From the IMG/VR virus record IMGVR_UViG_3300037322_000284: 64,000 nt of DNA. One strand, 5' to 3'. This DNA is from an uncultured virus (IMG/VR IMGVR_UViG_3300037322_000284) (lineage: Duplodnaviria; Heunggongvirae; Uroviricota; Caudoviricetes). Under the pieces are notes generated by a model. It was given only the letters and a program-made list of their open reading frames with translations, had not been told where the DNA came from and made no database searches. Position numbers and translations under genes: made by a program. This document shows positions 1,827 to 30,702 of the stretch, one piece after another; within the stretch, counting starts at the first letter, position 1, and each line of letters begins with the position of its first letter.

Positions 1827-2072
1827 ATGAAAATTATAGGCAAACAGAAAAAAGAAATTAAAGACATTATATTTAAAAATTTCTATTTTGTTGAGATAGA
1901 AACTATAAATGATAGTTCTTCGTTGTATGCAGATTTAGATTTCGATGTTCTAGATTTAATAGACTTAATGATGAGAATAGAGTCTCACTTTGGAATCACA
2001 ATACCTAGTTCTTATTGGGAAGATGTAGAAACTGTAGAAAATATTTATAAAATTGTAAATGATTGGTTGTAG
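1827..2072 (+). CDS. Acyl carrier protein-like protein lacking the attachment Ser
   Basis: ADLDFDVLDLIDLMMRIESHFGITIP...VETV aligns to ACP DLGxDSLDxxELxMxxExxFGIxIP...TV, with DSL replaced by DVL. Confidence 0.75.
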   Translation: MKIIGKQKKEIKDIIFKNFYFVEIETINDSSSLYADLDFDVLDLIDLMMRIESHFGITIPSSYWEDVETVENIYKIVNDWL

Positions 2073-2209
2073 ATAAAAGTATTAAAGCTTCGAGGTCTTT
2101 TCTCAACTAAGTTGATTAGAAGACTACGCTACCGAAATGACAAGTGAACGCCCAAGCGTTATTTTTTAAAGTGGAGAAACGGGCTGTAAAAGCAACACCT
2201 CCAAATAAG

Positions 2210-2288
2210 GGAGAAATAGCTCAGTTGAATAGAGCATCAGTTCGTTAGGGAACAGAATGTATCGAGGGTTTGAACCCATCTTCTTCCA
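2210..2288 (+). tRNA. Degenerate/pseudo tRNA with atypical anticodon arm
   Basis: Acceptor GGAGAAA/TTCTTCC; D arm TAGCTCAGTTGAATAGAGC; T arm GAGGG-TTTGAAC-CCATC; 20-nt anticodon arm, identity unassignable. Confidence 0.55.
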
Positions 2289-2522
2289 CGAATCAACAAT
2301 ACGAATCATTGTAGTATCTACTTTGGAGGTCAAACCTCATTAAAAAATGAATTGTAGTTTGCGATTGAATTTTAAAAAGACCGAAAGCTTTAACAGTATC
2401 AAGATTGAGAATAGAAATAAATTCTATTTAGATACCTCAACGTTCTGTATAAAAGTAATTGGAGAGAGTGTATTTTTAACTCTTATTTTTTATTTTCGGC
2501 GAAAAAATCAAAAACAGTAAAT

Positions 2523-2972
2523 ATGAAAACACCAACATTAGAACAAGTAAAAGAACATTTTAAAAACGCAAAAGAGGTAAAATGTTTATCAAGTGGATAC
2601 ATACACGATTTAACTAAAATTGAAATAACTAGAGATATTCACGAATGGGAAGAAGACGGGTTTTGGATTGATGCAAATATTACTGGACGTAATATACAAC
2701 TACATAGTACAACAAAAGGATTTACTGAAATCATATCATATAAAACAGAATTTACACACTTAGAAGAAATTGAAGTAGCTTACGACCCCAATAATTGGAT
2801 AAAAGGTAAATTTGTTGGAAAAACATCTAAAGGTTTATTTGTTGTAGAAGATTGGCAAGGAGGAATAAGGAAATATAAATATGTTCGTAAAATTGACGAA
2901 TCAAAAAATAAAGCGATATTAGAAATTAGAGAAATGATGAGTTTAAATAACATTAAAAAACAAGAATTGTAA
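2523..2972 (+). CDS. hypothetical protein
   Basis: 149-aa ORF with A-rich leader, co-oriented with neighbours. Confidence 0.7.
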   Translation: MKTPTLEQVKEHFKNAKEVKCLSSGYIHDLTKIEITRDIHEWEEDGFWIDANITGRNIQLHSTTKGFTEIISYKTEFTHLEEIEVAYDPNNWIKGKFVGKTSKGLFVVEDWQGGIRKYKYVRKIDESKNKAILEIREMMSLNNIKKQEL

Positions 2973-3301
2973 TGAACAACCTATTTAAAAAAGAAAAAGC
3001 TATTGAATTAGACGCTAACTATAGTTTAGAGACTGATGGTGGTAATGGTGTATCTTTAGTGTTTCAAGAGGAAAGGCAGAAAGGAAAAACTGAAAAGATA
3101 AATGGTAAAATCGCAAAAACAGGTGAAACAGAGGCTTTTGTATTTAAAGATGCTTGGTTTTTTAACACTGTTGGACAAGCGTTGTCAAAGTATTTAGAAC
3201 TATCACAAAATTCGTCAAAGATATTAGAGGAAGTAGTTGTAAAAACAGATGAGATTTTGAAAATAATTCAAGATTTTAGAAGAGATTATAAAAATTGGTA
3301 A
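2972..3301 (+). CDS. hypothetical protein
   Basis: 109-aa ORF, TAATG overlap with upstream gene. Confidence 0.7.
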   Translation: MNNLFKKEKAIELDANYSLETDGGNGVSLVFQEERQKGKTEKINGKIAKTGETEAFVFKDAWFFNTVGQALSKYLELSQNSSKILEEVVVKTDEILKIIQDFRRDYKNW

Positions 3302-3439
3302 AACAAAATTTTTAACAAACAATCACTCTAATAGATTTGCACAAAAAGAATTAAAGTGTTACCTTTGTTTCAAGAGATGTCAGAGACATTGAGCATTAAG
3401 ACTAGCCTTTTCTAAGGGGTCGTTTCTGCAAAAAATAAC

Positions 3440-3472
3440 AAGACGGTTGGTTTATTCCTGTCCGTCTTTTTT
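3440..3472 (+). terminator. Terminator/attenuator-like hairpin in nrdB leader
   Basis: AAGACGG...CCGTCTT followed by T tract. Confidence 0.45.
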
Positions 3473-3500
3473 GTCCCTTAATAAATAATAATAATTTAAA

Positions 3501-4472
3501 ATGAGTATTTTTACAGAGAGAAAAAACTACAAGCCATTTGAATATCCCGAAGCAGTGGATATGATGGAAAAAATGAATCATACCTATTGGCTCCACTCTG
3601 AGTTAACATTTAATGGTGATAAAAACGACTACCTAAACCTATCAGAACTTGATAGAGAAGCAGTTAGGAGAAGCCTATGTGCAATTTCAACGATAGAAAT
3701 ATCCACAAAGACTTTTTGGCAACAACTAGGAGAGCATTTTCCTAAACCTGAATTTTCTATGCTTGGTGTTACAGCAGGTGAATCTGAGTGCAGACATTCC
3801 GAAAGTTATAGTAGATTGCTGACATTGCTTGACTTGGAAAAAGATTTTGTCGAGTGTTTAGAAATACCCGCATTGAAAGGTAGATTTAGTTATTTAGAAA
3901 AATACTTAAAATTGTCCCCTCACAATTCAGATAGAAAAAAGTATATAACCAAATTAATTTTATTTTCTGTACTTATTGAAAATGTTTCTTTGTTTAGTCA
4001 ATTTGCTACAATCATGTACTACTACCGACAGCACGGCTTAATGAAAGATGTGAGAAACATTATAAAGTGGACTGCCATTGATGAACAACTTCACTTTAAT
4101 ATTGGTGTGATGATTATTAATATACTTAGAAAAGAGCACCCTGAGATATTTGATGAGCAATTAAATGAAGTAGTTAGAAAAGCTTGTATAAAATCTGTCA
4201 AACACGAAAAAGAAATACTTGATTGGATTTTTGAAAAGGGGGAGTTAGAAAACCTGACAAAACAAAACCTTTTAGACTATATGCAAAGTAGAGTAAATGA
4301 CTCTATGAAAGCTATGAAATTTGATAAAGTTTTTGAAGATGTGGGCGACTTAACAAATACAGATTTTTTCTTTGAAGAAGTTTTTGCAGATAGCCAAGAT
4401 GATTTTTTTGCACTAAGACCCGTGGATTACACATTGAATGATGTGAGTATTACACAAGATGATTTATTTTAA
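3501..4472 (+). CDS. nrdB: Ribonucleotide reductase beta subunit (class Id/NrdBi-like)
   Basis: YKPFEYP, ExRH..Y, IENVSLFSQF, DEQLH, C-terminal DFF..RP..Y; first ligand region IEISTK. Confidence 0.95.
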   Translation: MSIFTERKNYKPFEYPEAVDMMEKMNHTYWLHSELTFNGDKNDYLNLSELDREAVRRSLCAISTIEISTKTFWQQLGEHFPKPEFSMLGVTAGESECRHSESYSRLLTLLDLEKDFVECLEIPALKGRFSYLEKYLKLSPHNSDRKKYITKLILFSVLIENVSLFSQFATIMYYYRQHGLMKDVRNIIKWTAIDEQLHFNIGVMIINILRKEHPEIFDEQLNEVVRKACIKSVKHEKEILDWIFEKGELENLTKQNLLDYMQSRVNDSMKAMKFDKVFEDVGDLTNTDFFFEEVFADSQDDFFALRPVDYTLNDVSITQDDLF

Positions 4473-4492
4473 ATAATTAATAACGAACAAGA

Positions 4493-6145
4493 ATGGAGTT
4501 TAAACCATATTGGTGGTACAATAAAGAAAGTGCAGATATGCTAAAAAGAGGGTATTTGCTGGAGAATCAAACAGTAGAGGAAAAATTAGATAAAATCTGT
4601 ACAAGAGCCTCTGAAATATTAAAAAGACCTGATTTAAAAGAGGGGTTCAAAGAAGTTTTTGTAAATGGTTGGGCATCGTTAAGTTCGCCTATTTGGGCAA
4701 ATTTTGGAGAGGATAGGGGTTTACCTATAGCGTGCTTCTCTAGTTTTGTACCCGACAGTCTATTAGGTATATATGACTCTTTGAAGGAGGTAGCTGTTAT
4801 GACTCAACAGGGGGGAGGTACTTCGGGCTATTTTGGAAATTTGCGTGAAAAGGGTGCGCCAATTAAAGGTGGGGGTAAATCATCTGGTACTGTTTCTTTT
4901 GTGAGTCAATTTGACAAGACAATTGAGATTGTGAGTCAATCAGGGGTTCGTAGGGGAGCTTTTGCAGCATACTTGGACATCAATCACTCTGAAATAAAAG
5001 AGTTTCTTAAAATTAAAGATAAAGGAAACAGTATGCAAACTATAAATACTGCTGTGAACGTACCTGATTGGTGGATGGAAGAGATGATTGCAGGAGACAA
5101 AGACAAAAGAGATGTTTGGGCAACTGTTATTAGGTCAAGAAGGGAAAAGGGTATTCCATATATTCACTTTATTGACAACGTGAATAATAATGCACCCCAA
5201 GTCTATAAAGACAAAGGGATGAGAATAAACCAATCAAATCTGTGCCAAGAGATAGAACTGTCAACTGATGAAACAGAGTCTTTTGTTTGCTGTTTACTTT
5301 CTATGAATCTCTATACTTACGATGATTGGAAAAACACCAACGCAATTGAATTAATGGTTTATTTTTTAGATGCAGTTATGGAAGATTTTATACAAAAAGC
5401 ATCTAGTATGAGTGGTATGGAAAGGGCTGTAAAGTTTGCTGTCAATCAAAGAGCTTTAGGTTTGGGTGTTTTAGGTTACTACTCTTACTTGCAAAAAAAC
5501 ATGATTGCTTTTGAATCTTTTGAAGCTATGCAATTAAATTCAAAAATTTTTAAAGACTTACAAGAAAAAGCATATAAAGCTTCCGAAAAATTAGCTGTTG
5601 AGTACGGTGAACCTGAATTATTAAAAGGGTATGGTAGAAGGAATACGACACTGATAGCCTTAGCACCTACAACATCTTCAAGTTCAATTTTAGGGCAAGT
5701 TTCACCAAGCATAGAGCCTTACAAATCAAACTATTTTGTAGTAGGTTTAGCAAAAGGCTCATTTACAAGAAAAAACCAAGAGTTGTTAAAACTTTTAAAA
5801 ACTAAGGATAAGGATACTAAAGATGTTTGGGAGCAAATTATTAAAAATAAAGGTTCTGTACAGTTCTTGGACTTTTTAAGTGATAACGAAAAGGCAGTCT
5901 TTAAAACATTTGAAGAGATTTCTCCGTTAGCTGTTATACAACAGGCTTCTATCAGGCAAAAGTTTATTGACCAAGGACAAAGTTTAAACCTGTTAATACC
6001 AAATGAAGTTGAGATTAAACAAATTAATAGTTGGATGATTGAGGCGTGGAAACTAGGGATAAAAGGTTTGTATTATCAGCGTGGTACATCAATCGCAAAA
6101 GACCAAGTTTTAAAAATGCTAGATTGCACTGCATGTGAATCTTAA
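4493..6145 (+). CDS. nrdA: Ribonucleotide reductase alpha subunit, short and lacking an ATP cone
   Basis: PIACF, GGGTS, RRGA, SNLCQE, APTTSSS, DQGQSLN, LYY, C-terminal CTAC. Confidence 0.95.
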   Translation: MEFKPYWWYNKESADMLKRGYLLENQTVEEKLDKICTRASEILKRPDLKEGFKEVFVNGWASLSSPIWANFGEDRGLPIACFSSFVPDSLLGIYDSLKEVAVMTQQGGGTSGYFGNLREKGAPIKGGGKSSGTVSFVSQFDKTIEIVSQSGVRRGAFAAYLDINHSEIKEFLKIKDKGNSMQTINTAVNVPDWWMEEMIAGDKDKRDVWATVIRSRREKGIPYIHFIDNVNNNAPQVYKDKGMRINQSNLCQEIELSTDETESFVCCLLSMNLYTYDDWKNTNAIELMVYFLDAVMEDFIQKASSMSGMERAVKFAVNQRALGLGVLGYYSYLQKNMIAFESFEAMQLNSKIFKDLQEKAYKASEKLAVEYGEPELLKGYGRRNTTLIALAPTTSSSSILGQVSPSIEPYKSNYFVVGLAKGSFTRKNQELLKLLKTKDKDTKDVWEQIIKNKGSVQFLDFLSDNEKAVFKTFEEISPLAVIQQASIRQKFIDQGQSLNLLIPNEVEIKQINSWMIEAWKLGIKGLYYQRGTSIAKDQVLKMLDCTACES

Positions 6146-6167
6146 ACATAACAATTCTAAATAAGAG

Positions 6168-6194
6168 AAGGTAGTATTAATTTACTACCTTTTT
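6168..6194 (+). terminator. Intrinsic terminator after nrdA
   Basis: AAGGTAGTA/TACTACCTT stem plus T tract. Confidence 0.7.
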
Positions 6195-6219
6195 CTTTGT
6201 TTATAAATTAAATGTTTTT

Positions 6220-6268
6220 TATCTTTGTAGGAGTAGAAAAGACTGTTTTATTTTCTTTTTTGCGGAAA
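6220..6268 (+). repeat. ~50-bp promoter-containing repeat, second copy at about 27330-27377
   Basis: TATCTTTGT..GTAGAAAAGACTGTTTTATTTTCTTTTTTGCGGAAA present at both loci. Confidence 0.75.
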
Positions 6269-6423
6269 AAATAACCAAGGCTACACTGTTAAGGTGAGTA
6301 AGCGAAAGTTTAAATTGAAAAGTCAAATTGAGAAATAATTTAAAGAGCGAGAAGAATACGAAAACGATGCGACCAATATTTTAATGGAAGCGCACGGATT
6401 AATTAATCAAAAGTATTAGTAAA

Positions 6424-7275
6424 ATGATAAATAAAGCAGACAAATACCTTAAAGAAACATTACTAGAAATATTAGAAGAGGGTACAATTGATAAGAACCC
6501 AAGACCAAAATATGAAGACGGAGAGCCCGCTTTTAGTAAGTTTATAACACAAAAAGTATTTGAATACGATTTACAAGAAGGCGAATTTCCAATACCCACT
6601 CTACGTAAGACTGCGATAAAAACAGGTATTAAAGAAATACTTTGGATTTACCAAAAGCAAACATCAAGTTTAAAGACCGCAAGAAAGTTAGGTATTAATT
6701 GGTGGGATAATTGGGACATTGGTAATGATACGGTGGGTAAACGTTATGGCGCAACCGTTGCTGAATACGACATTATTGAAAATGTACTGTACGAATTAGA
6801 GCATAATAAATTTAGCAGGAGACATGTAGTTAATTTATACCAATATAGAGATTTTGAAGAAACTAAAGGGTTATACCCTTGTGTATTTTTATCCATGTTT
6901 GCCGTTCGTGAAATTGACAACGTTAACTATTTAGATCTAATGGTTGTTTCTCGCTCATCTGATTTTATTACTGCGGGATTTATAAATCAAACACAATATG
7001 TAGGTTTACTTATGATGATTGTGGGGCATTTAAATACAGTTACAGAAGAAAATTGGGAAATAGGTAAATTTATGTTTGTGGTTAATGATATCCACATGTA
7101 TCTGTCGCACAGACACACTGTCAAAGAGGTTCTACAAAGAGAATCTTTAGACATTCAACCAACTATGTCACTTAAAGTGAATAAAGACTTCTTTGATTAC
7201 ACTATTGAGGATTTTGAGTTTAGTGGTTTGGAAAATATATTACCTTTAAAAAATAAATTAGAGCTTGCAATTTGA
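6424..7275 (+). CDS. thyA: Thymidylate synthase
   Basis: EILW, YG, SRR, LYPC (catalytic Cys), SRSSDF, N..QY, HMY motifs. Confidence 0.92.
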   Translation: MINKADKYLKETLLEILEEGTIDKNPRPKYEDGEPAFSKFITQKVFEYDLQEGEFPIPTLRKTAIKTGIKEILWIYQKQTSSLKTARKLGINWWDNWDIGNDTVGKRYGATVAEYDIIENVLYELEHNKFSRRHVVNLYQYRDFEETKGLYPCVFLSMFAVREIDNVNYLDLMVVSRSSDFITAGFINQTQYVGLLMMIVGHLNTVTEENWEIGKFMFVVNDIHMYLSHRHTVKEVLQRESLDIQPTMSLKVNKDFFDYTIEDFEFSGLENILPLKNKLELAI

Positions 7276-7344
7276 CAAAATTTGTTTCATGTTACAACCA
7301 TTGTCAAACATTTGCGTGGTAGGGGTAATAGTGGTATCTTTGCT

Positions 7345-7900
7345 ACAAGTTAAAGGAGAAATCCTCTTGAGCAGTAAAATAAGATTATCTACCACCATAG
7401 ACCAATCATCAAAAATAAAGTAAGGGTTAAACCTCGCATAAATAAGATGGGATAATAGGAACATGGTGGTGTTTTTAGAGTCCTATTTTTAGTTTAGCGA
7501 GGTTTTCTGTTTTTAGCCCATAGGGGTGTACATTAAGTTTGTACAATCACATCCTTGATAGTCGGGTTGAGGAAACCGCTTACTAAAAGGAGTTGACGGA
7601 GGGTTAATAATTGCAGGATTGAAATAATATCCAAAAATAGTGATGAAGTTGTCCCCTCTACCTAGAAAGAATTGCTTATATATAAACTTGTGGGCGTGTT
7701 AAGACAGAACAGTGTAAAAAGGGTGGTTCTGCAACGTTTGGGTGAACGAGGGAGTGATACAACCTCAACGTACAGCATAGGGGAAATTATAAGTTTAAAT
7801 CGCCGTCAATAAAAAAGAGACAGAATCTATAAATAGGTAAACTGTTAGAGAGAAATGACGGTTAACGAACTTTGAAGGAGGTTCTAAAGGGGTTTCCTAT
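7345..7900 (+). ncRNA. Candidate large structured non-coding RNA (strand inferred from upstream promoter)
   Basis: No credible ORF; promoter TATCTTTG at 7335-7342; many nested and long-range helices (see findings). Confidence 0.5.
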
Positions 7901-8272
7901 GTCCGATAATTTTTTACAGTTTGTATCCCAAGTATCGTACTTTAACGATAATTTATTTATTTTCGGCGAAATCAAGAATCTACAGTTTCTTTTACCGTTT
8001 TTATTTAAGGGGGTCTCCGCCGAATTATTATATTTTTATCAAAAAGTTAGTTACTAATAAATCTCGCAAATTTCCGCAAACAAAGGTAAAGAACAGTAGA
8101 AACAACAAAAACGGATTTTTTATTACTATTGTGGGCTCTCTAAAAGTGTTAAATTGATAAATAAACTAACTAATCCATAACAATTCTAAATAACAAATAT
8201 TTCTACTTTTTTGTTTGCAGTTGATAAATAAAACACTATCTTTGTAGAAGCAAAATTAATATTATAAAAACT

Positions 8273-8416
8273 ATGTTAAATCAACTAATACACTTAGTAA
8301 GTCTCTCAGATAATATATATTTGCAGAGAAAATTAGAAGAAGTACAAAAAATTTTAATGGAAACTCCTAGCGATGTAATTTTAGGAGAAAAGATTAGAAA
8401 GTACTTGCAGAATTAA
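8273..8416 (+). CDS. small hypothetical protein (47 aa)
   Basis: ATG directly after promoter 8237; read by eye, below ORF-track cutoff. Confidence 0.55.
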   Translation: MLNQLIHLVSLSDNIYLQRKLEEVQKILMETPSDVILGEKIRKYLQN

Positions 8417-8460: not shown

Positions 8461-8736
8461 ATGAACAGAAAAGAATTATTACAAGCTTCTCTCACAGAAG
8501 AGAAAAACACAACATTAGTAATTGCAAACACCACTAAGGCAGATGCAAAATTCCTAGTTAGAGCAGTACGAGATTTAAACGATTTAGTGGCAGATTTAAA
8601 AGAAAAGTTAGAGATTAGACTGTCTTCAACAGAACCATTAGATAAATCTGTTATAGAAGGACTATATTTCAATATTAAAGACGCTTTAGAAAGTATAGCT
8701 CTTTATGAGGAATTTGAAAAAGAGTACATTGCATAA
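8461..8736 (+). CDS. hypothetical protein
   Basis: 91-aa ORF after TACATTTG box. Confidence 0.7.
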   Translation: MNRKELLQASLTEEKNTTLVIANTTKADAKFLVRAVRDLNDLVADLKEKLEIRLSSTEPLDKSVIEGLYFNIKDALESIALYEEFEKEYIA

Positions 8737-11743: not shown

Positions 11744-12823
11744 ATGGCATTATATAAATCAACAGATTTAACGGATAAAACAGTAAAAATAATAGCGGAC
11801 TTTCAATCAGGAAAGGTTAAACCAATAACTACGGGAATTTCACATTTTGATTTGGCTTGTGGTAAGGGTTTAACACCTTCTTTAATATGTGGCATCACTG
11901 CTAGGAGTTTCAGTGGTAAAACTTATGACTTGGAAAGAATACAGTCGCATATTCGAGAACATCACCCTGACGTTATCCAACTACATGCTAACTGGGAGTT
12001 AAACTTCTTTAAAATTTTATTACGTGATATTTCTCAAAAAACAGGTAAGACACAATCTGAGATTCTATATAATAGCCCTACAACCGAGGATTTAATAGAA
12101 TTAGGTAAAGTATGTGATTTACACAGAAATGACAATATATACTATCAAAATGAGCCTGTTTCCCCAGAACAATTTTTTATTGATGTCAAAGAGTTAATAG
12201 ATAAACACCCTAATGAAAGACTTTTAGTTACAGTTGATAATCTCGAGAATGTTTTAGATACTAAAAATAATCAAAAATCATCTATTGATGCATTCTTAAC
12301 ACAGGTTAACAGGTTGAAAGATATGCATTGGTTTATCAGTTTTGTAATACTGAATCAACTTAATGATAATATTTTAAGTCGTATAGATAATCCCAAAATG
12401 CACAAACCAAAAGAAAATGATATTTATTCTAGTGGACAATTCTATAAACTCTGTGATGTAGTATATGTAAAAGTACTTCCTTGGCGTTTACATATAACAG
12501 ACAAGTTTATGGTATTCGGCAAAGAAGCTTATAGTTGGTTAGAAGAATTTAAGATATTTGGTAATGGTAACACTGCAAGTTTTGAACCAAACGGAGTAGC
12601 TTACTACTTTTACCTTAAAAGAAGAGGTAGTGATATTAAAGACACAAAAGATATTTTTGCCGAGAGAATATTTCAAGTAGAAAAAAACGATAGTGTTTTA
12701 TCAACACCAAATTTTAGTGCGCCTGTATTTACACCAACAGTAGACCTTACAAAACATCAACCGAGTTTTGCAAGTTTGAATAATGCATTTGCTCCACCTA
12801 ATGTTAATGATGAGCCATTTTAA
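11744..12823 (+). CDS. DnaB-like (SF4) replicative helicase
   Basis: ITTGISHFD, Walker A ARSFSGKT, Walker B VTVD, ILNQLN, CDVV. Confidence 0.8.
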   Translation: MALYKSTDLTDKTVKIIADFQSGKVKPITTGISHFDLACGKGLTPSLICGITARSFSGKTYDLERIQSHIREHHPDVIQLHANWELNFFKILLRDISQKTGKTQSEILYNSPTTEDLIELGKVCDLHRNDNIYYQNEPVSPEQFFIDVKELIDKHPNERLLVTVDNLENVLDTKNNQKSSIDAFLTQVNRLKDMHWFISFVILNQLNDNILSRIDNPKMHKPKENDIYSSGQFYKLCDVVYVKVLPWRLHITDKFMVFGKEAYSWLEEFKIFGNGNTASFEPNGVAYYFYLKRRGSDIKDTKDIFAERIFQVEKNDSVLSTPNFSAPVFTPTVDLTKHQPSFASLNNAFAPPNVNDEPF

Positions 12824-15586: not shown

Positions 15587-17590
15587 ATGAACTTAGATAA
15601 AGTTTTTGTGTCAGATATTGAAAGTATTGGGTATTTAGATGAGTTAAAATCATTTGAAGACTTACACGTACTATCTTGCTGCTATCTAAATTCTGAGGGT
15701 AAATGGGATATAAAATCCACTAAAGAAAAATCTGCAATACAGACATTACTAGGCAACCCAAACAATACAGTGTTATTTCATAATGGAGTTTGCTATGATA
15801 AACCAGCATTAGAAATAATGGGAATAAAGTTTAAAGCCGAAATTATTGACACTTTAGTTTTAAGTCAATATTTATATAGTGAAAGAGATAAACACGGTTT
15901 AGAATCTTGGGGTGATTTTTTTAATGTACCCAAGCCAAAAATTACGGACTGGAAAAATTTAAGCTATGATGAATATCGAGTTAGGTGTGAGGAGGATTGT
16001 AAAATCAATACAAATCTTTGGGTAATGATACTTACCTATCTCAGAGAGTTGTATGAAACAGATGAGGAAATTATAAACTTGATTAAATACCTCAATCATA
16101 AAGCCTATATGCTCCATTTGCAAGATAGAAATCCTATTCTAATAGATGTGCCTCAATGTGAAAAAAACTTAGCTTATTTAGAGAGTATTATAAAAGAAAA
16201 AGAAGATGAGTTAAATAGTATAATGCCTAAAACACCAATTAAATCTAAAAGAATAAAACCTAAAAAACTATATAATAAAGACGGTTCTTTATCAGAAGTA
16301 GCGAAAAAATGGAAAATGATAACTGATAAGATAAATCAACCTATTGAATACGATGGTAAAGTTGAAGTTATAACTGGATGGGTTGAGCCTAACTGCCAAT
16401 CTAGTACACAAATGAAACGGTTTTTACTCGATAGTGGCTGGATACCAACTATGTTTAAAGATGGGGCTAATGGAAAAGTTGCACAATTAAGAGATGATGA
16501 TAAAAATTTATGCCCTAATATTGAAAAACTAATAGAGCAGAAACCACAATTAGAATCTCTTAATGGACTTAGTAGGGCACAACATAGGGCAGGCTATTTA
16601 AAATCTATGTTAAAACATGTTGATGAAAACGGGTATGCAAAAGCTTGGGCTCATGCCTTTACTCGAACGTTACGTTTGAAGCATGTAGCTCCATTTGTAA
16701 ATTTACCTAAGCCTAATACACAATATGGTGAATTAGTTAGGAGCGTTATGATTGCACCCAAAGGTTATGTTTGTTTTGGAGCAGATCTAAGTAGTATTGA
16801 AGATAAGTGTAAACAGATTTCAATATTCCAATTAGATAGACCTTATGTAGAATCTATGAATTCTAAAGGATGGGACGCACACCTGACACTTGGATTAAAG
16901 GCGGGGATGTTTACAGAAGATGAAGTGCAATTTTATAAATGGTATAATAATAAAGAAAAAGAAGAAAATATATATACTTGCCCCGATTCTTTAATAGACC
17001 TTACGGAGGAAGATATGTTAGAAACTTTTCACGTATTAAGTAAGAAAAGAAGTACAAGTAAGACTGCAAATTATGCCTTGACATACGGTTGTGGTGTTGC
17101 TAAACTTATGGAATCTACTGAATTACCTAGAAAAGATGCAGAAAAATTACACAAGGGATACCATGATATAAATTGGAGCGTTAAGAAATTTGCAGAAACA
17201 AGAATAGTAAAAACAATAATTGGTAAAAATTGGTTAAGAGTTGACAAAAAGGCGGGTGGTTTGATAGAAGTAAATGAAACTAAGTGGATTTGGAATGAGT
17301 ATAGTAAACTATGGCTTTTCTTAAAAAACGATAAAGACCGTTTCGCTGCATGTAATTCTAATTTTGGAGTTAAAGTTTTTGATGTATGGAGTTGGTTCTT
17401 GATTCAAGGTGGTATAAAGTTTTCATACCAAGCTCACGACGAACAGTTTTGGTATTGCCCTGAGAGTGAGGTAGATAATCATATAAAAATTATAGAATTT
17501 GCAATTAAAAAAACTAATGATGTATTTAATCCCCCTATACCTTTAGAATGTGATTATAAGATTGGTGAAAATTATTCGAAAGTACACTAG
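15587..17590 (+). CDS. DNA polymerase family A with 3'-5' exonuclease
   Basis: ExoI DIES, ExoII HNGVCYD, ExoIII RCEED; motif A GADLSSIE, motif B R...KTANYALTYG, motif C AHDE. Confidence 0.93.
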   Translation: MNLDKVFVSDIESIGYLDELKSFEDLHVLSCCYLNSEGKWDIKSTKEKSAIQTLLGNPNNTVLFHNGVCYDKPALEIMGIKFKAEIIDTLVLSQYLYSERDKHGLESWGDFFNVPKPKITDWKNLSYDEYRVRCEEDCKINTNLWVMILTYLRELYETDEEIINLIKYLNHKAYMLHLQDRNPILIDVPQCEKNLAYLESIIKEKEDELNSIMPKTPIKSKRIKPKKLYNKDGSLSEVAKKWKMITDKINQPIEYDGKVEVITGWVEPNCQSSTQMKRFLLDSGWIPTMFKDGANGKVAQLRDDDKNLCPNIEKLIEQKPQLESLNGLSRAQHRAGYLKSMLKHVDENGYAKAWAHAFTRTLRLKHVAPFVNLPKPNTQYGELVRSVMIAPKGYVCFGADLSSIEDKCKQISIFQLDRPYVESMNSKGWDAHLTLGLKAGMFTEDEVQFYKWYNNKEKEENIYTCPDSLIDLTEEDMLETFHVLSKKRSTSKTANYALTYGCGVAKLMESTELPRKDAEKLHKGYHDINWSVKKFAETRIVKTIIGKNWLRVDKKAGGLIEVNETKWIWNEYSKLWLFLKNDKDRFAACNSNFGVKVFDVWSWFLIQGGIKFSYQAHDEQFWYCPESEVDNHIKIIEFAIKKTNDVFNPPIPLECDYKIGENYSKVH

Positions 17591-20569: not shown

Positions 20570-21016
20570 ATGGAAGAAAACAAAATAAAACTTTTCGCCA
20601 AGCAAATAAAGTGTGATGAAAAGTTAGCAGAAAATGAAGTGTTTGTAGAGTTTGATGTAGAAGAGTTGCTAGATCAAATTGAACATAAAGATATTACTGC
20701 TTATGCTAAAATGTGGTGTAACTTAATTTCTCACGAAGAAATAGATTTATCAGATTTTAGTGAGGAAGAATTGGTGACAGCTTTACAAAACATGGGATTT
20801 GATTTTATTTCCGAAGTGGATACCGAAGATATGATAGATGCTATTGAAAGTGACGGATATGAAGTTACCTTAGAAAATGTAGTACTTGACGAGGATTTAG
20901 ACCACACAGACAAACAAATGCTAGATCAAATAGTTAATAAATTCCAAGGTAGTAGTTGGGGAGATAGGGAAGAAATGTATAAAAATTTGATGGTTTTGAA
21001 AGATTTTAAATTATAA
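20570..21016 (+). CDS. highly acidic hypothetical protein
   Basis: 148 aa, D/E-rich with repeated E-L/M-x-x-A-L/I..G-F/Y units. Confidence 0.7.
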   Translation: MEENKIKLFAKQIKCDEKLAENEVFVEFDVEELLDQIEHKDITAYAKMWCNLISHEEIDLSDFSEEELVTALQNMGFDFISEVDTEDMIDAIESDGYEVTLENVVLDEDLDHTDKQMLDQIVNKFQGSSWGDREEMYKNLMVLKDFKL

Positions 21017-21125
21017 CCCCAATCAAGAACACCCTTTAGCTTGAAATTGTTAAACAGGTATTTGGAAGGAGGAAGGGAATTCAATATTTAGAAAATGGAT
21101 TTACAGAATTAATTTGCCCTAAATG

Positions 21126-21251
21126 TACGTTCCGCATATCTTGTGCTGTTACCGATGTGACACAAAATAATAATTTAATTAAACGGGATAATCCCAAACA
21201 CAAAACAATAACAACCAAAGCCTAATACGGTAATAGCTCAAATATGCTGTT
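21126..21251. repeat. attC-like hairpin 1 (degenerate left end)
   Basis: TAC-GTTCC-GCATATCTTGTGCTGTTACCG (21134-54) pairs with CGGTAATAGCTCAAATATGC-T-GTT (21228-51). Confidence 0.7.
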
Positions 21252-21281
21252 ATCACTGCGGTTTTTTATCCCACAACACAA

Positions 21282-21473
21282 ATGAAAACATTTAAAAAAA
21301 TTATCGGATACTTAATTGTATCACTTTTCGCAATAATGATAATATGCTGTTTTGCTTATAATATCTATCAAACTGGTTGGTACTTCATGCTACCCCTAGT
21401 TATTATTTTAGCTTTAGTTGGATTACTTATTTTTGGACTTCGTCTTTTAAGCGACAACGACCAAGCTGAGTGA
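21282..21473 (+). CDS. Cassette 1: small two-TM membrane protein
   Basis: 63 aa with two hydrophobic helices; stop codon lies inside AGTGACAAC. Confidence 0.75.
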   Translation: MKTFKKIIGYLIVSLFAIMIICCFAYNIYQTGWYFMLPLVIILALVGLLIFGLRLLSDNDQAE

Positions 21474-21474
21474 C

Positions 21475-21598
21475 AACGTCCGAGTGCTTGGCGAAGAAGC
21501 GGACTTATGAAAATTATATTTTCAGAAAACAATAAACGCAATTAGAATTACAAAACTTGAATTATAAACTGAACCCGCTTTTTTGCCAAACACTTGTT
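21475..21598. repeat. attC-like hairpin 2
   Basis: AAC-GTCC-GAGTGCTTGGCGAAGAAGCGG (21482-502) pairs with CCGCTTTTTTGCCAAACACTT-GTT (21575-98). Confidence 0.85.
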
Positions 21599-21632
21599 AT
21601 GTGATGAACGGGTTTTAACAACTAAATTAATT

Positions 21633-21935: not shown

Positions 21936-21951
21936 ATATAGTTTATCACAT

Positions 21952-22037
21952 AACGGTTGGGTGTATGAGAAGGTTTGCTTAGATGAACTTTCAAATTACC
22001 ACAAATGTTGACAGCAAACTTTCTTATACACCTTGTT
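21952..22037. repeat. attC-like hairpin 3
   Basis: AAC-GGTT-GGGTGTATGAGAAGGTTTGCT (21959-79) pairs with AGCAAACTTTCTTATACACCT-T-GTT (22013-37). Confidence 0.85.
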
Positions 22038-22078
22038 ATATTTAGGTTTGTTTTTGTTTTACCGATTAAAAAAATGAT

Positions 22079-22508: not shown

Positions 22509-23312
22509 ATGAATATTCCTAAATACCTCGAAATGTATCGGAAAGACTTAATTTTAAAAAATTACTCTCACAACACGATAAAAAACTATGTCTATCAAGC
22601 AGATTTATTTTTAAGACATCAAGAAAAAGAGTTTACAGAACCATCAAAAGTAAACGAACAAGCAATTAAAAATTGGTTATTGCAATTCAAAACCAGAAAT
22701 GCAATGTGTCATTCATTATCTGCTTTAAAGTTGTTTTATAAAATGACAATTAAGCAACCAAGGAAGTTTCGTTATATTGAATACCCTCGCTCAGAAAAGA
22801 AGCTTCCAAGAATAATTGATAAGTCTTTTCTACTTGATTGTATTTCTAAAATAACAAACACTAAACACAAGGCTGTAATATCACTAGCATATTCAACAGG
22901 GATGAGAGTTTCAGAAGTTTGTAATTTAAAAATATCTGGCATTGACAGTAAAAGAATGGTAATCTCTATTAGACAGTCTAAAGGTAGAAAAGATAGAATC
23001 GTCGCTTTATCCGAGAAGATTTTAGTAATTCTCAGAGTTTATTTTTTAGAGTACAAACCTAAAGAATATTTATTTAATGGTCAATTTACGCAACAATATT
23101 CAACTACAAGTTGCAATCAAATTGTTAAAAAATACTTAGGTAAAGAATTTCACTTTCATCTTTTAAGGCACAGTAACGCCACAGCATTATTAGAAGCGGG
23201 TACGGATTTAAGGATTATTCAGAAACATCTTGGGCACTCAAGCTCAAAAACAACAGAAATATACACACACGTAAGCACTAATATTTTGCAATCAATGTCT
23301 TTACCCATTTAA
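22509..23312 (+). CDS. Tyrosine recombinase/integrase (SAM-like N-domain plus catalytic domain), no IntI I2 insertion
   Basis: YSHNTIKNY; YSTGMRVSE (R), KGRKDR (K), HLLRHS (HxxR), LGHSS (H), TEIYTH (Y). Confidence 0.95.
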   Translation: MNIPKYLEMYRKDLILKNYSHNTIKNYVYQADLFLRHQEKEFTEPSKVNEQAIKNWLLQFKTRNAMCHSLSALKLFYKMTIKQPRKFRYIEYPRSEKKLPRIIDKSFLLDCISKITNTKHKAVISLAYSTGMRVSEVCNLKISGIDSKRMVISIRQSKGRKDRIVALSEKILVILRVYFLEYKPKEYLFNGQFTQQYSTTSCNQIVKKYLGKEFHFHLLRHSNATALLEAGTDLRIIQKHLGHSSSKTTEIYTHVSTNILQSMSLPI

Positions 23313-23468
23313 AACTATTGTGACCCTAATAATAATTTTCTTTTTTATCAAAAATATAAACCAAACTTAGAATACTTAAAATAATCTAATACCCTAATTT
23401 TACATTATTATTTTAGAAACATTAGGGTATATATAAAATTTAAACTACCTTTGTAAAAACTAAACGAT

Positions 23469-23627
23469 ATGGACGGAACGAAATGCGAGGGGACTAATTG
23501 CCCCCTAAAAGAAAAGTGTTATAGATACACTGCAAAAGCAAATGAATATTATCAAAGTTATTTCACTGAGATTCCTTATGATTTTAAAACTAAAAAATGT
23601 GAATATTTATGGAAGCGGAAAACTTAA
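23469..23627 (+). CDS. small Cys-rich phage protein (52 aa)
   Basis: MDGTKCEGTNCPLKEKCYRYTA...QSY...CEY, read by eye after promoter 23446. Confidence 0.65.
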   Translation: MDGTKCEGTNCPLKEKCYRYTAKANEYYQSYFTEIPYDFKTKKCEYLWKRKT

Positions 23628-23845
23628 TAGATTGGTTAGTTAAATTAGACATTGCATTCTACGTCACTACAAAAGAAGTAGACTATGACCCTAAATGTAA
23701 ATCTCACTTGTATTTGAGGGGTTCGCCCGAAAGATTCTCAGGTGCGGATATTATATCTATTTTTGAGAACAAAGCAACTGACGAGATAAACGAAAATTGG
23801 CAATATGCAATTGCCGACCATAACGCATATTTAAAAAGACGTTAA
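23609..23845 (+). CDS. hypothetical protein
   Basis: 78-aa ORF. Confidence 0.6.
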   Translation: MEAENLIDWLVKLDIAFYVTTKEVDYDPKCKSHLYLRGSPERFSGADIISIFENKATDEINENWQYAIADHNAYLKRR

Positions 23846-23847
23846 TT

Positions 23848-24270
23848 ATGGATAAAATATATAAAAAATTAGGTAAAAGGTACGTGGAAGTAGAGCCACA
23901 AAGATTTAAAATAGATTTTTTTGAATTTGCTTTTCTAGTAGAAGCCTGCGTACCAAAACGCCCTATCGCAAGAGCAATGTTTTTTCATAACGTAATTGAT
24001 AAGTACTATTATGAAATGACCTCCGAGGAAAGAGAAAGACTGTTTGAGTGGGTAAACAGGCATAGTGGTTTTCAAGACAGCTTGGAAAAGAATAATGAAG
24101 ATTGTATAGCTTTTAATGCGAGGTTTGATAAAGATAACCAATACTTGGTCTCTACCTTTTTTGCCGAAAAAGAAGGTAAAACAGAAACTTTTAAAATGGG
24201 AGAAAGATATCACACTTCAATAAGCACAAGTGTAAACGAAGAATACATAACTAAAATAGAAAAATTATAA
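23848..24270 (+). CDS. hypothetical protein
   Basis: 140-aa ORF. Confidence 0.7.
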   Translation: MDKIYKKLGKRYVEVEPQRFKIDFFEFAFLVEACVPKRPIARAMFFHNVIDKYYYEMTSEERERLFEWVNRHSGFQDSLEKNNEDCIAFNARFDKDNQYLVSTFFAEKEGKTETFKMGERYHTSISTSVNEEYITKIEKL

Positions 24271-24921: not shown

Positions 24922-25524
24922 AAAACCGATACCTGTAGTTTTAAAAGAGACAGGTAAAGATGCAATGGCTATTTATTGTTTTAACGGCGGAACTTTTGAG
25001 AATGATTTATGGACGGTTGCTCTATGTGAAACAGGAGACATAATAACAGTTAGAACCGACCAAATAAAAATGCACGTAAATAAAACTTTTGATATAGAGA
25101 AATGAAATATAAAGTAACAACAAAGTTAGACACACCGTGGTGGAAGAGACTACTACGGTGGTTAAGATTGAGTGAACCTATTGAAGAATTTGAAATAGAG
25201 TTTACAGAAGACTACTTTAGCATAGGGGATATTTTAGATGCCACTAATTGTAAAGTTAAGATAATAGGAAGGGTTTCGGCGAAAAACAGTTAAAACAAAG
25301 GGAATATGAATATTTGGATAAAAACAGAAATATACACTCAAGCAGAACAGAAGATACTAATTCAACCAACACCAGAGTTTGATGGAATAACTGCGCACAT
25401 AAAAGAATTAGACGGTTCGGAAAGTCTAGGAGAATTTTATATAACTCCCGAAGAACTACCTATAATTATCAAAAAGTTGCAAGAAATGATAGAATATGTT
25501 ACAAATTCGGCGAAAAACAATTAA
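24911..25524 (+). CDS. three small hypothetical proteins (24911-25105, 25102-25293, 25306-25524)
   Basis: Tightly packed, overlapping co-oriented ORFs. Confidence 0.6.
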
Positions 25525-25543
25525 AAACAGAAAAATAATTTAA

Positions 25544-30666: not shown

Positions 30667-30702
30667 AAAAAACCCACCTTGTTAGAGTGGGTTTTGCTTT
30701 TT
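30667..30702. terminator. Bidirectional terminator at the strand convergence
   Basis: AAAACCCAC/GTGGGTTTT stem flanked by A and T tracts between converging modules. Confidence 0.75.

What the first reader, a model, noticed from the sequence alone, without database searches (positions are those of the whole stretch)
7316..7900. Large structured non-coding region after thyA, candidate novel ncRNA
Seen: about 1 kb without a credible ORF in a gene-dense genome, visibly G-richer, with promoter TATCTTTG at 7335. Helices include GGGTTAA(7424)/TTAGCCC(7513), AAACCTCGC(7429)/GCGAGGTTT(7497) and AATAGGA(7454)/TCCTATT(7481), whose loop ATGGTGGT(7463) complements ACCACCAT(7391) as a pseudoknot. Further helices: AGGGGTGT/ACATCCT (about 7522-7555), long-range TTGACGG(7593)/CCGTCAA(7803), AAACTTGTG(7684)/TATAAGTTT(7788) and CAGAAC(7705)/GTTCTG(7726). 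G-U pairs favour a + strand RNA. I found no tmRNA, RNase P or group II domain V signature.
Basis: partly seen in the sequence, partly recalled or inferred. Interest (0 to 1): 0.7.

Follow-up and report, generated by a model that had tools for sequence, protein, structure and literature searches.

The report
Novel large structured phage RNA gene
The 1-kb gene-free stretch after thyA most likely holds a gene for a large folded non-coding RNA of a family not described before, which also occurs, as a self-contained cassette, in other and partly unrelated phages; its job is still unknown.

Summary
The gap 7276-8272 is truly non-coding: no ORF, no coding signal in any frame or alternative code, no Pfam hit. 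It matches no Rfam family, tRNA or tmRNA.

Relatives exist. Pattern scans of IMG/VR found the same element in three further phage lineages:
- L190/L191/L220, 73% identical to the window over 211 nt.
- L216.
- A distant class, L183/L186, that shares only an almost invariant 40-nt hairpin (window 7609-7648).

On the 213-nt core (7594-7804), 14 of 44 consensus pairs keep pairing through changes on both sides, against 0-2 in slid controls. Column-shuffled alignments never reach the observed covariation or energy (0/200). G-U pairs and energy favour the + strand.

All three full-length lineages have a Bacteroidota-type promoter (TTTG-N20-TAnnTTTG). Two also have a terminator upstream of it. The cassette sits at different places in related phages.

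No expression data were available. The function is inferred only: most likely a trans-acting RNA that works through the invariant hairpin.

The parts
7271..7308 (+). Weak AT-rich hairpin just after the thyA stop (arms 7271-7285 / 7294-7308). It may be a terminator ahead of the RNA promoter.
   Evidence: Inverted repeat I10. The terminator scan did not call it. In L190 and L216 a clear hairpin-plus-T-run terminator stands at the equivalent place.
7311..7342 (+). Promoter of Bacteroidota type: TTTG (7311-7314), a 20-nt spacer, then TATCTTTG (7335-7342). The start of transcription is inferred at about 7347-7350.
   Evidence: TANNTTTG occurs 156 times against 105.8 +/- 9.5 expected. The same two-part motif precedes genes at 720, 1717, 6220, 8237 and 27330. 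L190 (TTTG 1060-1063, TATATTTG 1084-1091) and L216rc (913-916, 937-944) have the same motif with a 20-nt spacer before their RNA.
7346..7369 (+). 5' terminal hairpin: CAAG/CTTG and AGGA/TCCT stems with a GAAA loop.
   Evidence: Fold. The aligned L216 hairpin keeps pairing with 3 pairs changed on both sides (columns 4-27). On its own it is not above shuffles (z -0.85).
7391..7398 (+). 5' strand of the pseudoknot (ACCACCAT). It pairs with 7463-7470.
   Evidence: Exact 8-nt complement, found in 37 of 20000 shuffled leaders. L216 has TTCGTAG (1005) complementary to its hairpin loop CTACGAA (1071), found in 72 of 20000 shuffles. Both lie a few bases after the shared ATAAGATT.
7424..7519 (+). Long, nearly perfect, AU-rich hairpin of about 35 pairs. 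Its apical part (7463-7470) forms the pseudoknot. It is a candidate RNase III processing site (inferred).
   Evidence: dG -41.1 kcal/mol, z -7.33, 0/200 shuffles. L216 has a hairpin of like size at the same place (z -5.26, 0/200) with unrelated letters. L190 has none.
7570..7577 (+). AGGAAACC, the 5' strand of a long-range helix with GGTTTCCT (7891-7898) that would close the core.
   Evidence: Inverted repeat I15. L216 has ATAGGAAACC / GGTTTCCTAT (read). L190 lacks the 5' strand (A5). There is no covariation, so it is tentative.
7594..7804 (+). Conserved core of 213 model positions. Helices: H1 7598-7603/7654-7659; H2 7610-7614/7640-7644 with apical stem 7616-7619/7629-7632; H3 7674-7681/7787-7794; H4 7694-7697/7734-7737; H5 7705-7710/7726-7731; H6 7748-7751/7763-7766.
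   Evidence: 73% identity to L190 over 211 nt. Of 44 pairs, 14 change on both sides and 97.7% of cells are paired, against 36-48% and 0-2 in slid controls. Column-shuffle null 0/200. Model R1 scores 228 bits here.
7609..7648 (+). Almost invariant 40-nt hairpin module (AATTGCAGGATTGAAATAATATCC...GATGAAG), enclosed by H1. It is the only part shared with the second RNA class (L183/L186).
   Evidence: 95% identity (38/40) to L183/L186/L190. R1 positions 16-54 are the only match in L183, L186 and L208.
7883..7904 (+). Conserved 3' block TCTAAAGGGGTTTCCTATGTCC.
   Evidence: 22 of 23 nt identical to L190. Present in L216 and L220.
7905..8115 (+). 3' domain: a GGCG/CGCC hairpin (7964-7968 / 8018-8022) and the conserved element AAGAACAGT...AAAACGGA (8089-8115). 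The 3' end of the RNA is not defined.
   Evidence: Window 7886-8115 against L216rc 1437-1652: 62% over 232 nt, E 6e-11. Hairpin. 8095-8119 matches L190 1527-1551 at 80% (E 0.008). No canonical terminator was found.
8116..8272 (+). AT-rich spacer with the promoter of the next operon: upstream motif 8176-8193, TTTG 8214-8217, TATCTTTG 8237-8244. Probably not part of the RNA.
   Evidence: Shared upstream motif and promoter with 6130-6240 and 27240-27340. GC 0.24-0.27.

Best explanation
WHAT IT IS (about 0.85 likely). The gap holds an independent gene on the + strand for a large structured non-coding RNA, about 770 nt long here (about 7348 to at least 8115). It belongs to a family that has not been described.

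The gene is a self-contained cassette. An upstream hairpin or terminator is followed by a Bacteroidota-type promoter and then the RNA. The cassette has moved between phages.

Anatomy, from 5' to 3':
- A variable 5' domain: a small hairpin, and a pseudoknot between 7391-7398 and the tip of a long hairpin of about 35 pairs.
- A conserved 213-nt core of six helices, built around an almost invariant 40-nt hairpin.
- A conserved G-rich 3' block.
- A looser 3' domain.

SHOWN: non-coding nature, homology, covarying structure, strand, promoter motif, and mobility of the cassette.

HOW IT WORKS (inferred, about 0.35-0.4 likely). The RNA is made early from its own promoter. It is possibly trimmed at the long double-stranded hairpin by RNase III; in the second class the trimming would be at tRNA-like elements. 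It then acts in trans.

The invariant hairpin would be the working site and would bind a factor of the host: a protein or an RNA common to the hosts of these otherwise unrelated phages. The rest would be a scaffold. This would be host takeover or counter-defence by decoy or sequestration.
For: NON-CODING.

HOMOLOGUES. L190/L191/L220 are 73% identical over 211 nt, plus a 23-nt block. L216 is also a member. The 3' domain is homologous to L216 up to 8115.

STRUCTURE
- RNAalifold on 4 sequences from 3 lineages gives 56 pairs, 18 of them covarying.
- Against 200 column-shuffled alignments, 19 covarying pairs compare with 8.0 +/- 2.8 (maximum 16). Consensus energy z is -4.17. In both measures 0 of 200 shuffles reach the observed value.
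- On the core, 14 of 44 pairs change on both sides, against 0-2 when partners are slid.
- The pseudoknot and long hairpin recur in L216 with different letters.

STRAND
- 32 of 176 paired cells are G-U.
- Consensus energy is -34.8 on the + strand and -18.0 on the - strand.
- The promoter lies on the same strand in three lineages.

CASSETTE AND MOBILITY
- A terminator precedes the RNA promoter in L190 and L216.
- In G009, a relative of this phage (11 shared proteins), the RNA lies after the helicase gene rather than before the 91-aa/454-aa genes.
- The relatives G001-G003 lack it.
- G004/G010 and G007 carry it yet share 0 ORFs of 40 aa or more with the window at E <= 1e-4.
- No protein is shared by all carriers. 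This points to a host partner rather than a phage one.

NOT A KNOWN FAMILY.
Against: - No transcript has been seen. All ten runs that hold the stretch are DNA, so expression, ends and processing are all inferred.
- Only three independent lineages support the core, and two support the 5' domain.
- All homologues were retrieved through patterns anchored on two conserved blocks. The sample is therefore small and biased.
- The consensus structure was derived from the same sequences on which covariation was counted. The column-shuffle control corrects for this only in part.
- No intrinsic terminator follows the RNA in any lineage. Read-through into downstream genes, and hence a cis role, remains possible.
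- Nothing identifies the proposed host partner.
- The carrier contigs other than the window are fragments (17-90% complete). A shared phage protein could lie outside them.
Confidence: 0.55

Rival explanations
1. Cis-acting leader. The RNA would be the 5' part of the downstream operon's transcript. It would act on the polymerase that makes it (processive antitermination, as put RNA does in phage HK022) or otherwise control downstream genes.
For: No terminator follows the RNA in the window, L190 or L216. All copies point the same way as the downstream genes. In L216 I saw no TAnnTTTG promoter between the RNA and the next gene (reading). In G007 the element sits inside an early operon next to repressor-like genes.
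Against: The downstream genes differ in every lineage: small ORFs and a 454-aa protein here, an SF2 helicase in G004, and a protein that I recognise by eye as PAPS-reductase-like in G009. The window and L190 have a separate promoter between the RNA and the next gene. At 500-800 nt it is several times larger than known antiterminator RNAs (size recalled). A terminator-promoter-gene cassette that moves between sites fits an autonomous gene better.
Confidence: 0.15
2. CRISPR mimic. The invariant block would imitate the end of a host CRISPR repeat followed by a spacer-like stretch. The RNA would then load Cas proteins wrongly (an RNA anti-CRISPR) or redirect them (a viral crRNA-like regulator).
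For: The block is 95-100% conserved between phages that are otherwise unalignable, as expected of something that must match a host sequence. Its letters ATTGAAAT (7621-7628) resemble the 8-nt handle left by Cas6-type processing; this is recalled, not tested. AATTGC recurs 62 nt later (7609 and 7671), which is about one repeat-spacer unit. Such viral RNAs are in print: PMC10651486 and bioRxiv 10.1101/2024.10.29.618823 (I saw only the search listing with the start of each abstract).
Against: The block is folded on itself and enclosed by helices that covary (H1, H2), unlike a crRNA. A 213-nt covarying core and a 3' domain are not needed for a repeat mimic. No matching host repeat was found: the GTDB scan with the 3' two-thirds of the block gave 7 matches, all chance hits inside coding genes. 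That scan would, however, miss a repeat ending at ...GAAAT.
Confidence: 0.08
3. Replication origin or primer transcript. A promoter would drive a G-rich structured transcript into an AT-rich unwinding region (7900-8270), priming DNA synthesis next to the replication genes.
For: A promoter is followed by G-rich DNA and then by a stretch of 27% GC without skew. The gap lies upstream of helicase and polymerase genes here, and upstream of a helicase gene in G004.
Against: There are no iterons or tandem repeats. The element sits at different places in related phages. It is shared by phages whose replication genes show no similarity, whereas origins normally go with their initiators. The close relatives G001-G003 replicate without it.
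Confidence: 0.05
4. Small-protein gene. The conserved ATG at 7643 would start a short peptide (19 codons here), with the RNA structure serving only as its untranslated regions or giving a dual function.
For: An ATG at the same place opens frames of 19, 19, 19, 24 and 35 codons in the window, L190, L220, L216 and L189. The first residues are alike (M-K/R-L/F-S-P-L/I).
Against: Between the window and L190 the 19 codons differ at 8 first, 4 second and 6 third positions (my count on the sequences). That is no third-position excess. Several of these changes are the compensatory ones of H1, H3 and H4. The ATG is paired in H2. Length and C-terminus are not conserved. The coding score of the region is about 0.
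Confidence: 0.05
5. Decayed gene or junk DNA with chance structure.
For: The gap lies in a variable region that the relatives lack. Taken alone, 7560-7900 folds only marginally better than shuffles. The phage has other gaps of 400-600 nt.
Against: There is 73% identity over 211 nt, and an invariant 40-nt block, in phages with no detectable shared proteins. Substitutions are compensatory. There is no protein remnant: 0 of 11 frames hit Pfam at E <= 1, and tblastx found nothing below E 0.06.
Confidence: 0.03

Closest known systems
GOLLD and ROOL RNAs (large 'ornate' RNAs of phages and prophages)
   Same: Both are non-coding RNAs of 500-800 nt carried by phages, with many helices and pseudoknots, a conserved part beside a variable part, and no known function. 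tRNA-like elements occur beside or within them; here that holds for the second class, L189. These points are general knowledge plus PMC12286853, of which I saw only the start of the abstract in the search listing.
   Different: There is no sequence or structure match. Rfam cmscan found nothing at gathering score in the window and nothing relevant up to E 10 in 7200-8350, E 1 in L183 or E 5 in L190/L216. That Rfam holds models of both is recalled. The hosts here use Bacteroidota-type promoters. Oligomer formation was not tested.
put RNAs of phage HK022 (cis-acting antiterminator RNAs)
   Same: A phage RNA element placed just after an early promoter, made of stem-loops, acting without a phage protein (recalled).
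   Different: put RNAs are about 70 nt and act only in cis (recalled). This RNA is 500-800 nt, is a movable cassette with its own upstream terminator, and is followed by another promoter in two lineages.
RNA anti-CRISPRs (Racr) and viral crRNA-like RNAs
   Same: Small conserved RNA modules in unrelated phages that must match a host sequence. The invariant 40-nt block behaves this way. Papers: PMC10651486 and bioRxiv 10.1101/2024.10.29.618823 (listing only).
   Different: The block is embedded in a large covarying fold and is paired with itself. No host repeat was matched.
phi29 prohead (packaging) RNA
   Same: A phage-encoded structured RNA made from an early promoter that works as RNA, with structure conserved more than sequence (recalled).
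   Different: There is no similarity of sequence. The phages here are of other types. The cassette is absent from close relatives, so it cannot be an essential packaging part.
tmRNA, RNase P RNA, group I/II introns
   Same: Size class. By eye there are short runs that recall conserved motifs. The second class (L189) has two elements with an acceptor stem and a T arm.
   Different: ARAGORN finds no tmRNA or tRNA. Rfam finds none of these families. There is no T-arm motif in the window's gap. thyA is complete (283 of 283 residues match relatives), so there is no interrupted host gene for an intron.

Membership tests
Any Rfam 15 family (including GOLLD, ROOL, HEARO, OLE, raiA, RNase P, tmRNA, 6S, group I/II introns, small ribozymes) | Score at or above the family's gathering threshold against its covariance model | tested here: not met
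   There were 0 matches in the whole window at gathering score. In 7200-8350 there were only 3 chance matches, at E 0.97-8.6 and far below threshold. Nothing relevant turned up in the homologues L183, L190 and L216.
tRNA / tmRNA | Cloverleaf, or a tRNA-like domain with a tag reading frame, recognised by ARAGORN | tested here: not met
   0 genes in the window and in L183. No T-arm motif with a 5-bp stem occurs in 7276-8272. The mini-ORF ends are not conserved.
Self-splicing intron in thyA or a neighbouring gene | Interrupts a host gene whose exons join into a complete protein | tested here: not met
   ThyA (6424-7275) aligns over residues 1-283 of 283 with relatives and covers Pfam Thymidylat_synt positions 5-256 of 266. 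The element has its own promoter, and in other phages it lies between unrelated genes.
Structured non-coding RNA gene (generic) | Conserved secondary structure shown by compensatory changes, specific to one strand | tested here: met
   14 of 44 core pairs change on both sides, against 0-2 in slid controls. Covariation and energy exceed all 200 column-shuffled alignments. 32 of 176 cells are G-U, and the + strand energy is about twice that of the - strand.
Structured non-coding RNA gene (generic) | A transcript of defined ends is made | not testable with these tools
   No RNA run holds the stretch, and the four runs laid were DNA contigs. The promoter is inferred from the motif.
RNA anti-CRISPR / solitary repeat unit | Near identity to the CRISPR repeat of a host | tested here: inconclusive
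   No host genome is held. The GTDB pattern scan with the 3' two-thirds of the block gave 7 matches, all chance hits in coding genes. A repeat ending inside the block would have been missed, and no further genome scan was available.
Replication origin | Iterons or initiator boxes, and a fixed place relative to the replication genes among relatives | tested here: not met
   No repeat family beyond short two-copy matches. The position differs between the window and its relative G009, and the element is absent from G001-G003.

The most novel reading that the evidence does not exclude
This would be a new class of large 'ornate' phage RNA. Its invariant 40-nt hairpin would be an exchangeable functional module: it is mounted on at least two unrelated RNA scaffolds, one released by an RNase III-type hairpin and the other by tRNA-like punctuation. 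The RNA would act on its own, as a decoy that disarms a host defence or captures a core host factor, or as a self-assembling or catalytic RNA. That would add RNA 'morons' to the accessory genes that phages of Bacteroidota trade among themselves.
Probability: 0.3. Interest if true: 0.85.

Novelty: new variant of a known kind. Interest (0 to 1): 0.66.

Why it matters
Bacterial and phage non-coding RNAs longer than about 500 nt with an intricate conserved fold are rare. The few known classes (as I recall: ribozymes, OLE, GOLLD, ROOL, raiA) have each turned out to be unusual.

This one has four features that make it tractable:
- It has covariation support from only a handful of sequences.
- It has a clear promoter and cassette architecture.
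- It has an almost invariant hairpin that marks the likely working site.
- It has moved between phages that share no detectable proteins, which is the behaviour of counter-defence and host-takeover genes.

It also gives a concrete covariance model (R1) with which far larger collections can be searched.

If the hairpin module is shown to bind a host factor or a defence system, it would be an RNA counterpart of the protein 'morons' of phages that infect Bacteroidota. Regulatory RNA biology in that phylum is, to my knowledge, still poorly known.

Tried and rejected
HIDDEN CODING
- TAG=Q and table 4 give no long frame.
- Codon log-odds are at or below 0.10 in all six frames.
- Pfam on 11 stop-to-stop frames gave 0 hits at E <= 1.
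- tblastx against 102 loci gave a best E of 0.064.

SEARCHES FOR RELATIVES THAT FOUND NOTHING USEFUL
- Phages collection, blastn with 997 nt: no match.
- Synteny through ThyA: 80 IMG/VR loci and 80 metagenome loci, at most 56% identity. None has DNA like the gap or a conserved gap after thyA.
- Synteny through the 454-aa protein: 4 loci, with a gene-dense upstream region.
- DNA search of G001-G003: only chance hits of 14-25 nt.
- Non-coding frames used as protein queries found nothing in the search for homologous proteins and nothing for 7258-7482 in IMG/VR. The frame 7513-7698 gave the first real lead, L183.

CHANCE HITS SET ASIDE
- Of the 3 loci, L184 and L185 are chance hits in real genes.
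- Of the 10 loci, 5 are chance (L210, L212, L213, L215, L218).
- Of the 5 loci, 2 are chance (L219, L222).
- GTDB scan: 7 matches, all chance hits in coding genes.
- Model R1 over 1.44 Mb of held loci found no further member. The weak hits L089 (E 0.15), L060 (E 0.031), L158, L185 and L213 were taken as noise.

EXPRESSION AND VARIATION
- No RNA holder is listed among the 10 runs.
- Laid DNA contigs are near-identical, so they give no covariation. Neither X3 nor X4 covers 7618-7791, which the tool says proves nothing.

EARLIER NOTES AND LITERATURE
- Earlier notes of this scan: nothing.
- Literature: six sequence words gave 0 papers. A topic search listed nothing on such an RNA (listing only).

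RESEMBLANCES BY EYE, REJECTED
- RNase P, hammerhead, box C/D or k-turn, and group II domain V motifs. None is supported by Rfam or by the covarying pairing.
- GGA-motif enrichment: about 11 seen and about 10.6 expected, by my own count.
- Using control genomes to reach a Bacteroidota genome for a repeat search gave no handle.
Full report
1. WHAT IS AT THE COORDINATES

The window is a phage-like genome of about 32% GC. It has a + strand block of nucleotide-metabolism and replication genes:
- RNR small subunit, 3501-4472.
- RNR large subunit, 4493-6145.
- ThyA, 6424-7275.
- A DnaB-like helicase, 11744-12823.
- PolA, 15587-17590.

It also has a - strand block of very large virion proteins. No whole genome is held for it.

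Between the thyA stop (7275) and the next credible gene (8273) lies 997 nt of non-coding DNA:
- No ORF of 80 aa or more.
- No long frame under TAG=Q or table 4.
- The ten ORFs of 30-78 aa in the gap score -0.56 to +0.03 log-odds per codon. Ten real small genes of this phage score +0.31 to +0.57.
- A sliding six-frame scan never exceeds 0.10 inside the gap.
- Eleven stop-to-stop frames hit no Pfam family at E <= 1.
- tblastx against all loci held at that time found nothing below E 0.06.

The stretch 7340-7900 is G-enriched: 23.2% against 18.9% on coding strands. Its GC is 0.35-0.39. From 7900 to 8272 the DNA is AT-rich and has no skew.

2. PROMOTER

TANNTTTG is over-represented in the window: 156 sites against 105.8 +/- 9.5 expected. 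The exact TATCTTTG occurs 15 times. The copies at 720, 1717, 6220, 8237 and 27330 stand before genes, each with TTTG 19-20 nt upstream. The copy at 7335 has TTTG at 7311-7314 and a 20-nt spacer.

This is the two-part promoter type of Bacteroidota. That assignment rests on established knowledge, not on a tool result.

3. FOLDING OF THE WINDOW SEQUENCE ALONE

- 7316-7900 folds at z -4.43 on the + strand (0/100 shuffles) and z -1.46 on the - strand.
- Most of this signal comes from one long hairpin, 7424-7519: z -7.33, 0/200. Sliding windows reach -5 to -6 only over 7360-7600.
- 7560-7900 alone gives z -1.68, 4/100.
- By RNALfold the hairpin region ranks about 15th in the window.

From this sequence alone, therefore, the case for a 600-nt structured RNA was weak.

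4. KNOWN FAMILIES

- Rfam 15 found nothing at gathering score in the window.
- At E <= 10 in 7200-8350 there were only three chance hits.
- There are no tRNAs or tmRNAs.

5. FINDING RELATIVES

Routes through neighbouring genes failed.
- The nearest ThyA proteins in IMG/VR and JGI metagenomes are at most 56% identical. Their loci hold nothing like the gap.
- The nearest relatives of the phage, G001-G003, lack the whole RNR-thyA-gap module.
- Public runs that hold the stretch are DNA runs labelled salt-lake or outdoor metagenomes. Their contigs are near-identical to the window.

The break came from handing the open non-coding frame 7513-7698 (- strand) to the search for related loci as if it were a protein.
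- One of its three hits, L183, shares a 40-nt stretch at 95% identity (window 7609-7648). The stretch lies in a non-coding gap of about 510 nt in that contig.
- Patterns built on this block, and on a second conserved block, then found L186, L190/L191, L216 and L220 in IMG/VR.
- The same kind of scan over GTDB genomes gave only seven chance hits inside coding genes.

6. THE FAMILY

- L190 (with L191 and L220, which are near-identical) matches window 7601-7804 at 73% over 211 nt (E 5e-27). It matches 7882-7904 at 22 of 23 nt.
- L216 aligns over the same core. Its 3' domain aligns with window 7886-8115 at 62% over 232 nt (E 6e-11).
- L183/L187/L189 and L186/L188 form a second class. A covariance model of the core (R1, 213 positions, 44 pairs) matches them only at positions 16-54, the hairpin block.
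- R1 found no other member in the 1.44 Mb of loci held.
- None of the homologues matches an Rfam family.

7. COVARIATION

Window against L190 alone:
- RNAalifold gives 53 pairs, 11 of them changed on both sides.
- Column-shuffled alignments run through the same procedure give 5.4 +/- 2.1. One of 200 reaches 11.

Four sequences from three lineages:
- 56 pairs, 18 covarying by the tool's count and 19 by my script's count.
- The null is 8.0 +/- 2.8 with a maximum of 16, so 0 of 200 reach the observed value.
- Consensus energy z is -4.17, again 0 of 200.

On the core:
- 14 of 44 pairs change on both sides and 97.7% of cells are paired.
- With partners slid by 1-3 columns, 36-48% of cells are paired and 0-2 pairs covary.

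Helices with support, in window coordinates:

| Helix | Position | Pairs changed on both sides |
|---|---|---|
| H1 | 7598-7603 / 7654-7659 | 3 |
| H3 | 7674-7681 / 7787-7794 | 3 |
| H4 | 7694-7697 / 7734-7737 | 3 |
| H5 | 7705-7710 / 7726-7731 | 2 |
| H6 | 7748-7751 / 7763-7766, plus apical pairs | 3 |

H2 and its apical stem lie inside the invariant block. They vary only by G-C to G-U changes.

Strand: 32 of 176 paired cells are G-U. The consensus energy is -34.8 on the + strand and -18.0 on the - strand.

Caveats: there are only three lineages, and the structure was derived from the same sequences.

The window and L216 share no significant sequence upstream of the core (best E 0.44). Their architecture is nevertheless the same.
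- Both have a small 5' hairpin, with 3 compensatory pairs.
- Both have the shared word ATAAGATT.
- A few bases after that word, both have a short strand that is the exact complement of the tip of a long hairpin about 66-72 nt further on.
  - Window: ACCACCAT (7391) with ATGGTGGT (7463).
  - L216: TTCGTAG (1005) with CTACGAA (1071), which is exactly its 7-nt apical loop.
  - In shuffled leaders such a complement occurs in 37 and 72 of 20000 trials.
- The long hairpins fold at z -7.33 and z -5.26.

This is covariation for both the hairpin and the pseudoknot. L190 lacks the whole domain and starts with a short hairpin.

A double-stranded stem of about 35 pairs is what RNase III cuts. Processing at this stem is my inference.

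Supported:
- The three segments of the long hairpin.
- The pseudoknot.
- CAGAAC/GTTCTG.

Not conserved:
- AGGGGTGT/ACATCCT. ATCCT pairs instead with AGGAG at 7588-7592 in the consensus.
- TTGACGG/CCGTCAA. L190 has a local hairpin there instead.

Re-paired:
- TATAAGT pairs with 7674-7681.

10. CASSETTE AND MOBILITY

Promoter and terminator:
- L190 reads: gene, terminator (1005-1029), TTTG-N20-TATATTTG (1060-1091), RNA, next promoter, SF2 helicase gene.
- L216, read on its reverse strand, reads: gene, terminator, TTTG-N20-TATATTTG (913-944), RNA within a 1075-nt gap, then a gene that I recognise by eye as PAPS-reductase-like.

Position among relatives:
- G009, the contig of L216, is a relative of the window's phage. 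They share 11 proteins, for example PolA at 49% and the 454-aa protein at 49%.
- In G009 the RNA lies downstream of the helicase gene (26262-26474). In the window it lies upstream of the 91-aa and 454-aa genes.

Unrelated carriers:
- G004/G010 and G007 share 0 ORFs of 40 aa or more with the window at E <= 1e-4.
- These contigs are fragments, 17-90% complete.
- In G007 the element sits in an early operon beside repressor-like genes and upstream of Erf-like, exonuclease and SSB genes.

The RNA gene therefore behaves like a 'moron': an autonomous accessory cassette. This argues against an origin or a site-bound cis element. It also argues for a partner supplied by the host, since no protein is common to all carriers.

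11. FUNCTION

Nothing identifies the function directly.

I commit to a trans-acting RNA whose invariant hairpin binds a host factor, for host takeover or counter-defence. I put this at about 0.35-0.4.

Rivals:
- Cis-acting leader or antiterminator: 0.15.
- CRISPR-repeat mimic: 0.08.
- Origin or primer RNA: 0.05.
- Small-peptide gene: 0.05.
- Junk DNA: 0.03.

On the peptide reading: the mini-ORF at ATG 7643 is 19 codons long, and comparable frames exist in all members. However, it shows no third-position excess of change (8/4/6 by position against L190, my count). It also overlaps the compensatory changes.

12. NOVELTY

- No Rfam family matches.
- No phage in the INPHARED collection holds similar DNA.
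- No paper in the held library contains the block's letters. A topic search listed nothing comparable (listing only).

I therefore treat this as an undescribed RNA family of a known general kind: large structured RNAs carried by phages. Supplementary files were not consulted.

Noticed in passing
window 6147-6164, 8176-8193, 27254-27279; leaders 6228-6270 and 27338-27377: Three promoters (6220, 8237, 27330) share an 18-nt motif 45-75 nt upstream (CATAACAATTCTAAATAA, with small changes). Two of them are followed by a near-identical leader of about 40 nt. 6147-6269 and 27259-27377 are 80% identical over 123 nt. This looks like a regulator binding site and a shared 5' leader for one temporal class of genes.
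   Followed up: partly
window 32181-32282: This is the strongest local structure in the window: z -10.2 on the + strand and -8.7 on the - strand, dG -47 kcal/mol. It is a near-perfect palindrome within the minus-strand gene block, between the 480-aa (30701-32143) and 83-aa (32327-32578) ORFs, and is probably a two-way terminator.
   Followed up: no
window 21134-21248, 21476-21603, 21950-22040, 25110-25220: Other gaps of 400-600 nt without ORFs of 80 aa or more (21016-21594, 23312-23848, 24921-25544, 29666-30228). Some hold + strand local structures with z -4.7 to -6.3. Model R1 does not match them, so they are not copies of this RNA.
   Followed up: partly
L189 931-978 and 1103-1149 (= L183 minus strand; contig of G006; also in G007): The second RNA class carries two compact tRNA-like elements: a 6-bp acceptor stem, a small arm, and a 5-bp T arm with a TTCAAGT or TTCGAAT loop. 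They have no anticodon arm, and ARAGORN does not call them. They may serve as RNase P/Z punctuation to release the RNA from an operon transcript.
   Followed up: partly
window 1827-8272 against G001-G003: The whole block with an acyl-carrier-like protein, both RNR subunits, thyA and the RNA gene is absent from the nearest relatives. They hold other genes between the homologues of 946-1704 and 8461-8736. It is a variable accessory region.
   Followed up: partly
window 7643-7702; L190 1231-1290: A mini-ORF starts at a conserved ATG inside the invariant hairpin: 19 codons in the window and L190, 24 in L216, 35 in L189. The first six residues are alike. The pattern of substitutions fits RNA pairing better than coding.
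   Followed up: partly
window 7618-7791 in runs X3 and X4: Contigs of two DNA runs stop at 7581/7583, and none covers 7618-7791, although both flanks are covered at 2-5x. This could be low coverage or strain variation in the core. The tool warns that such a hole proves nothing.
   Followed up: no
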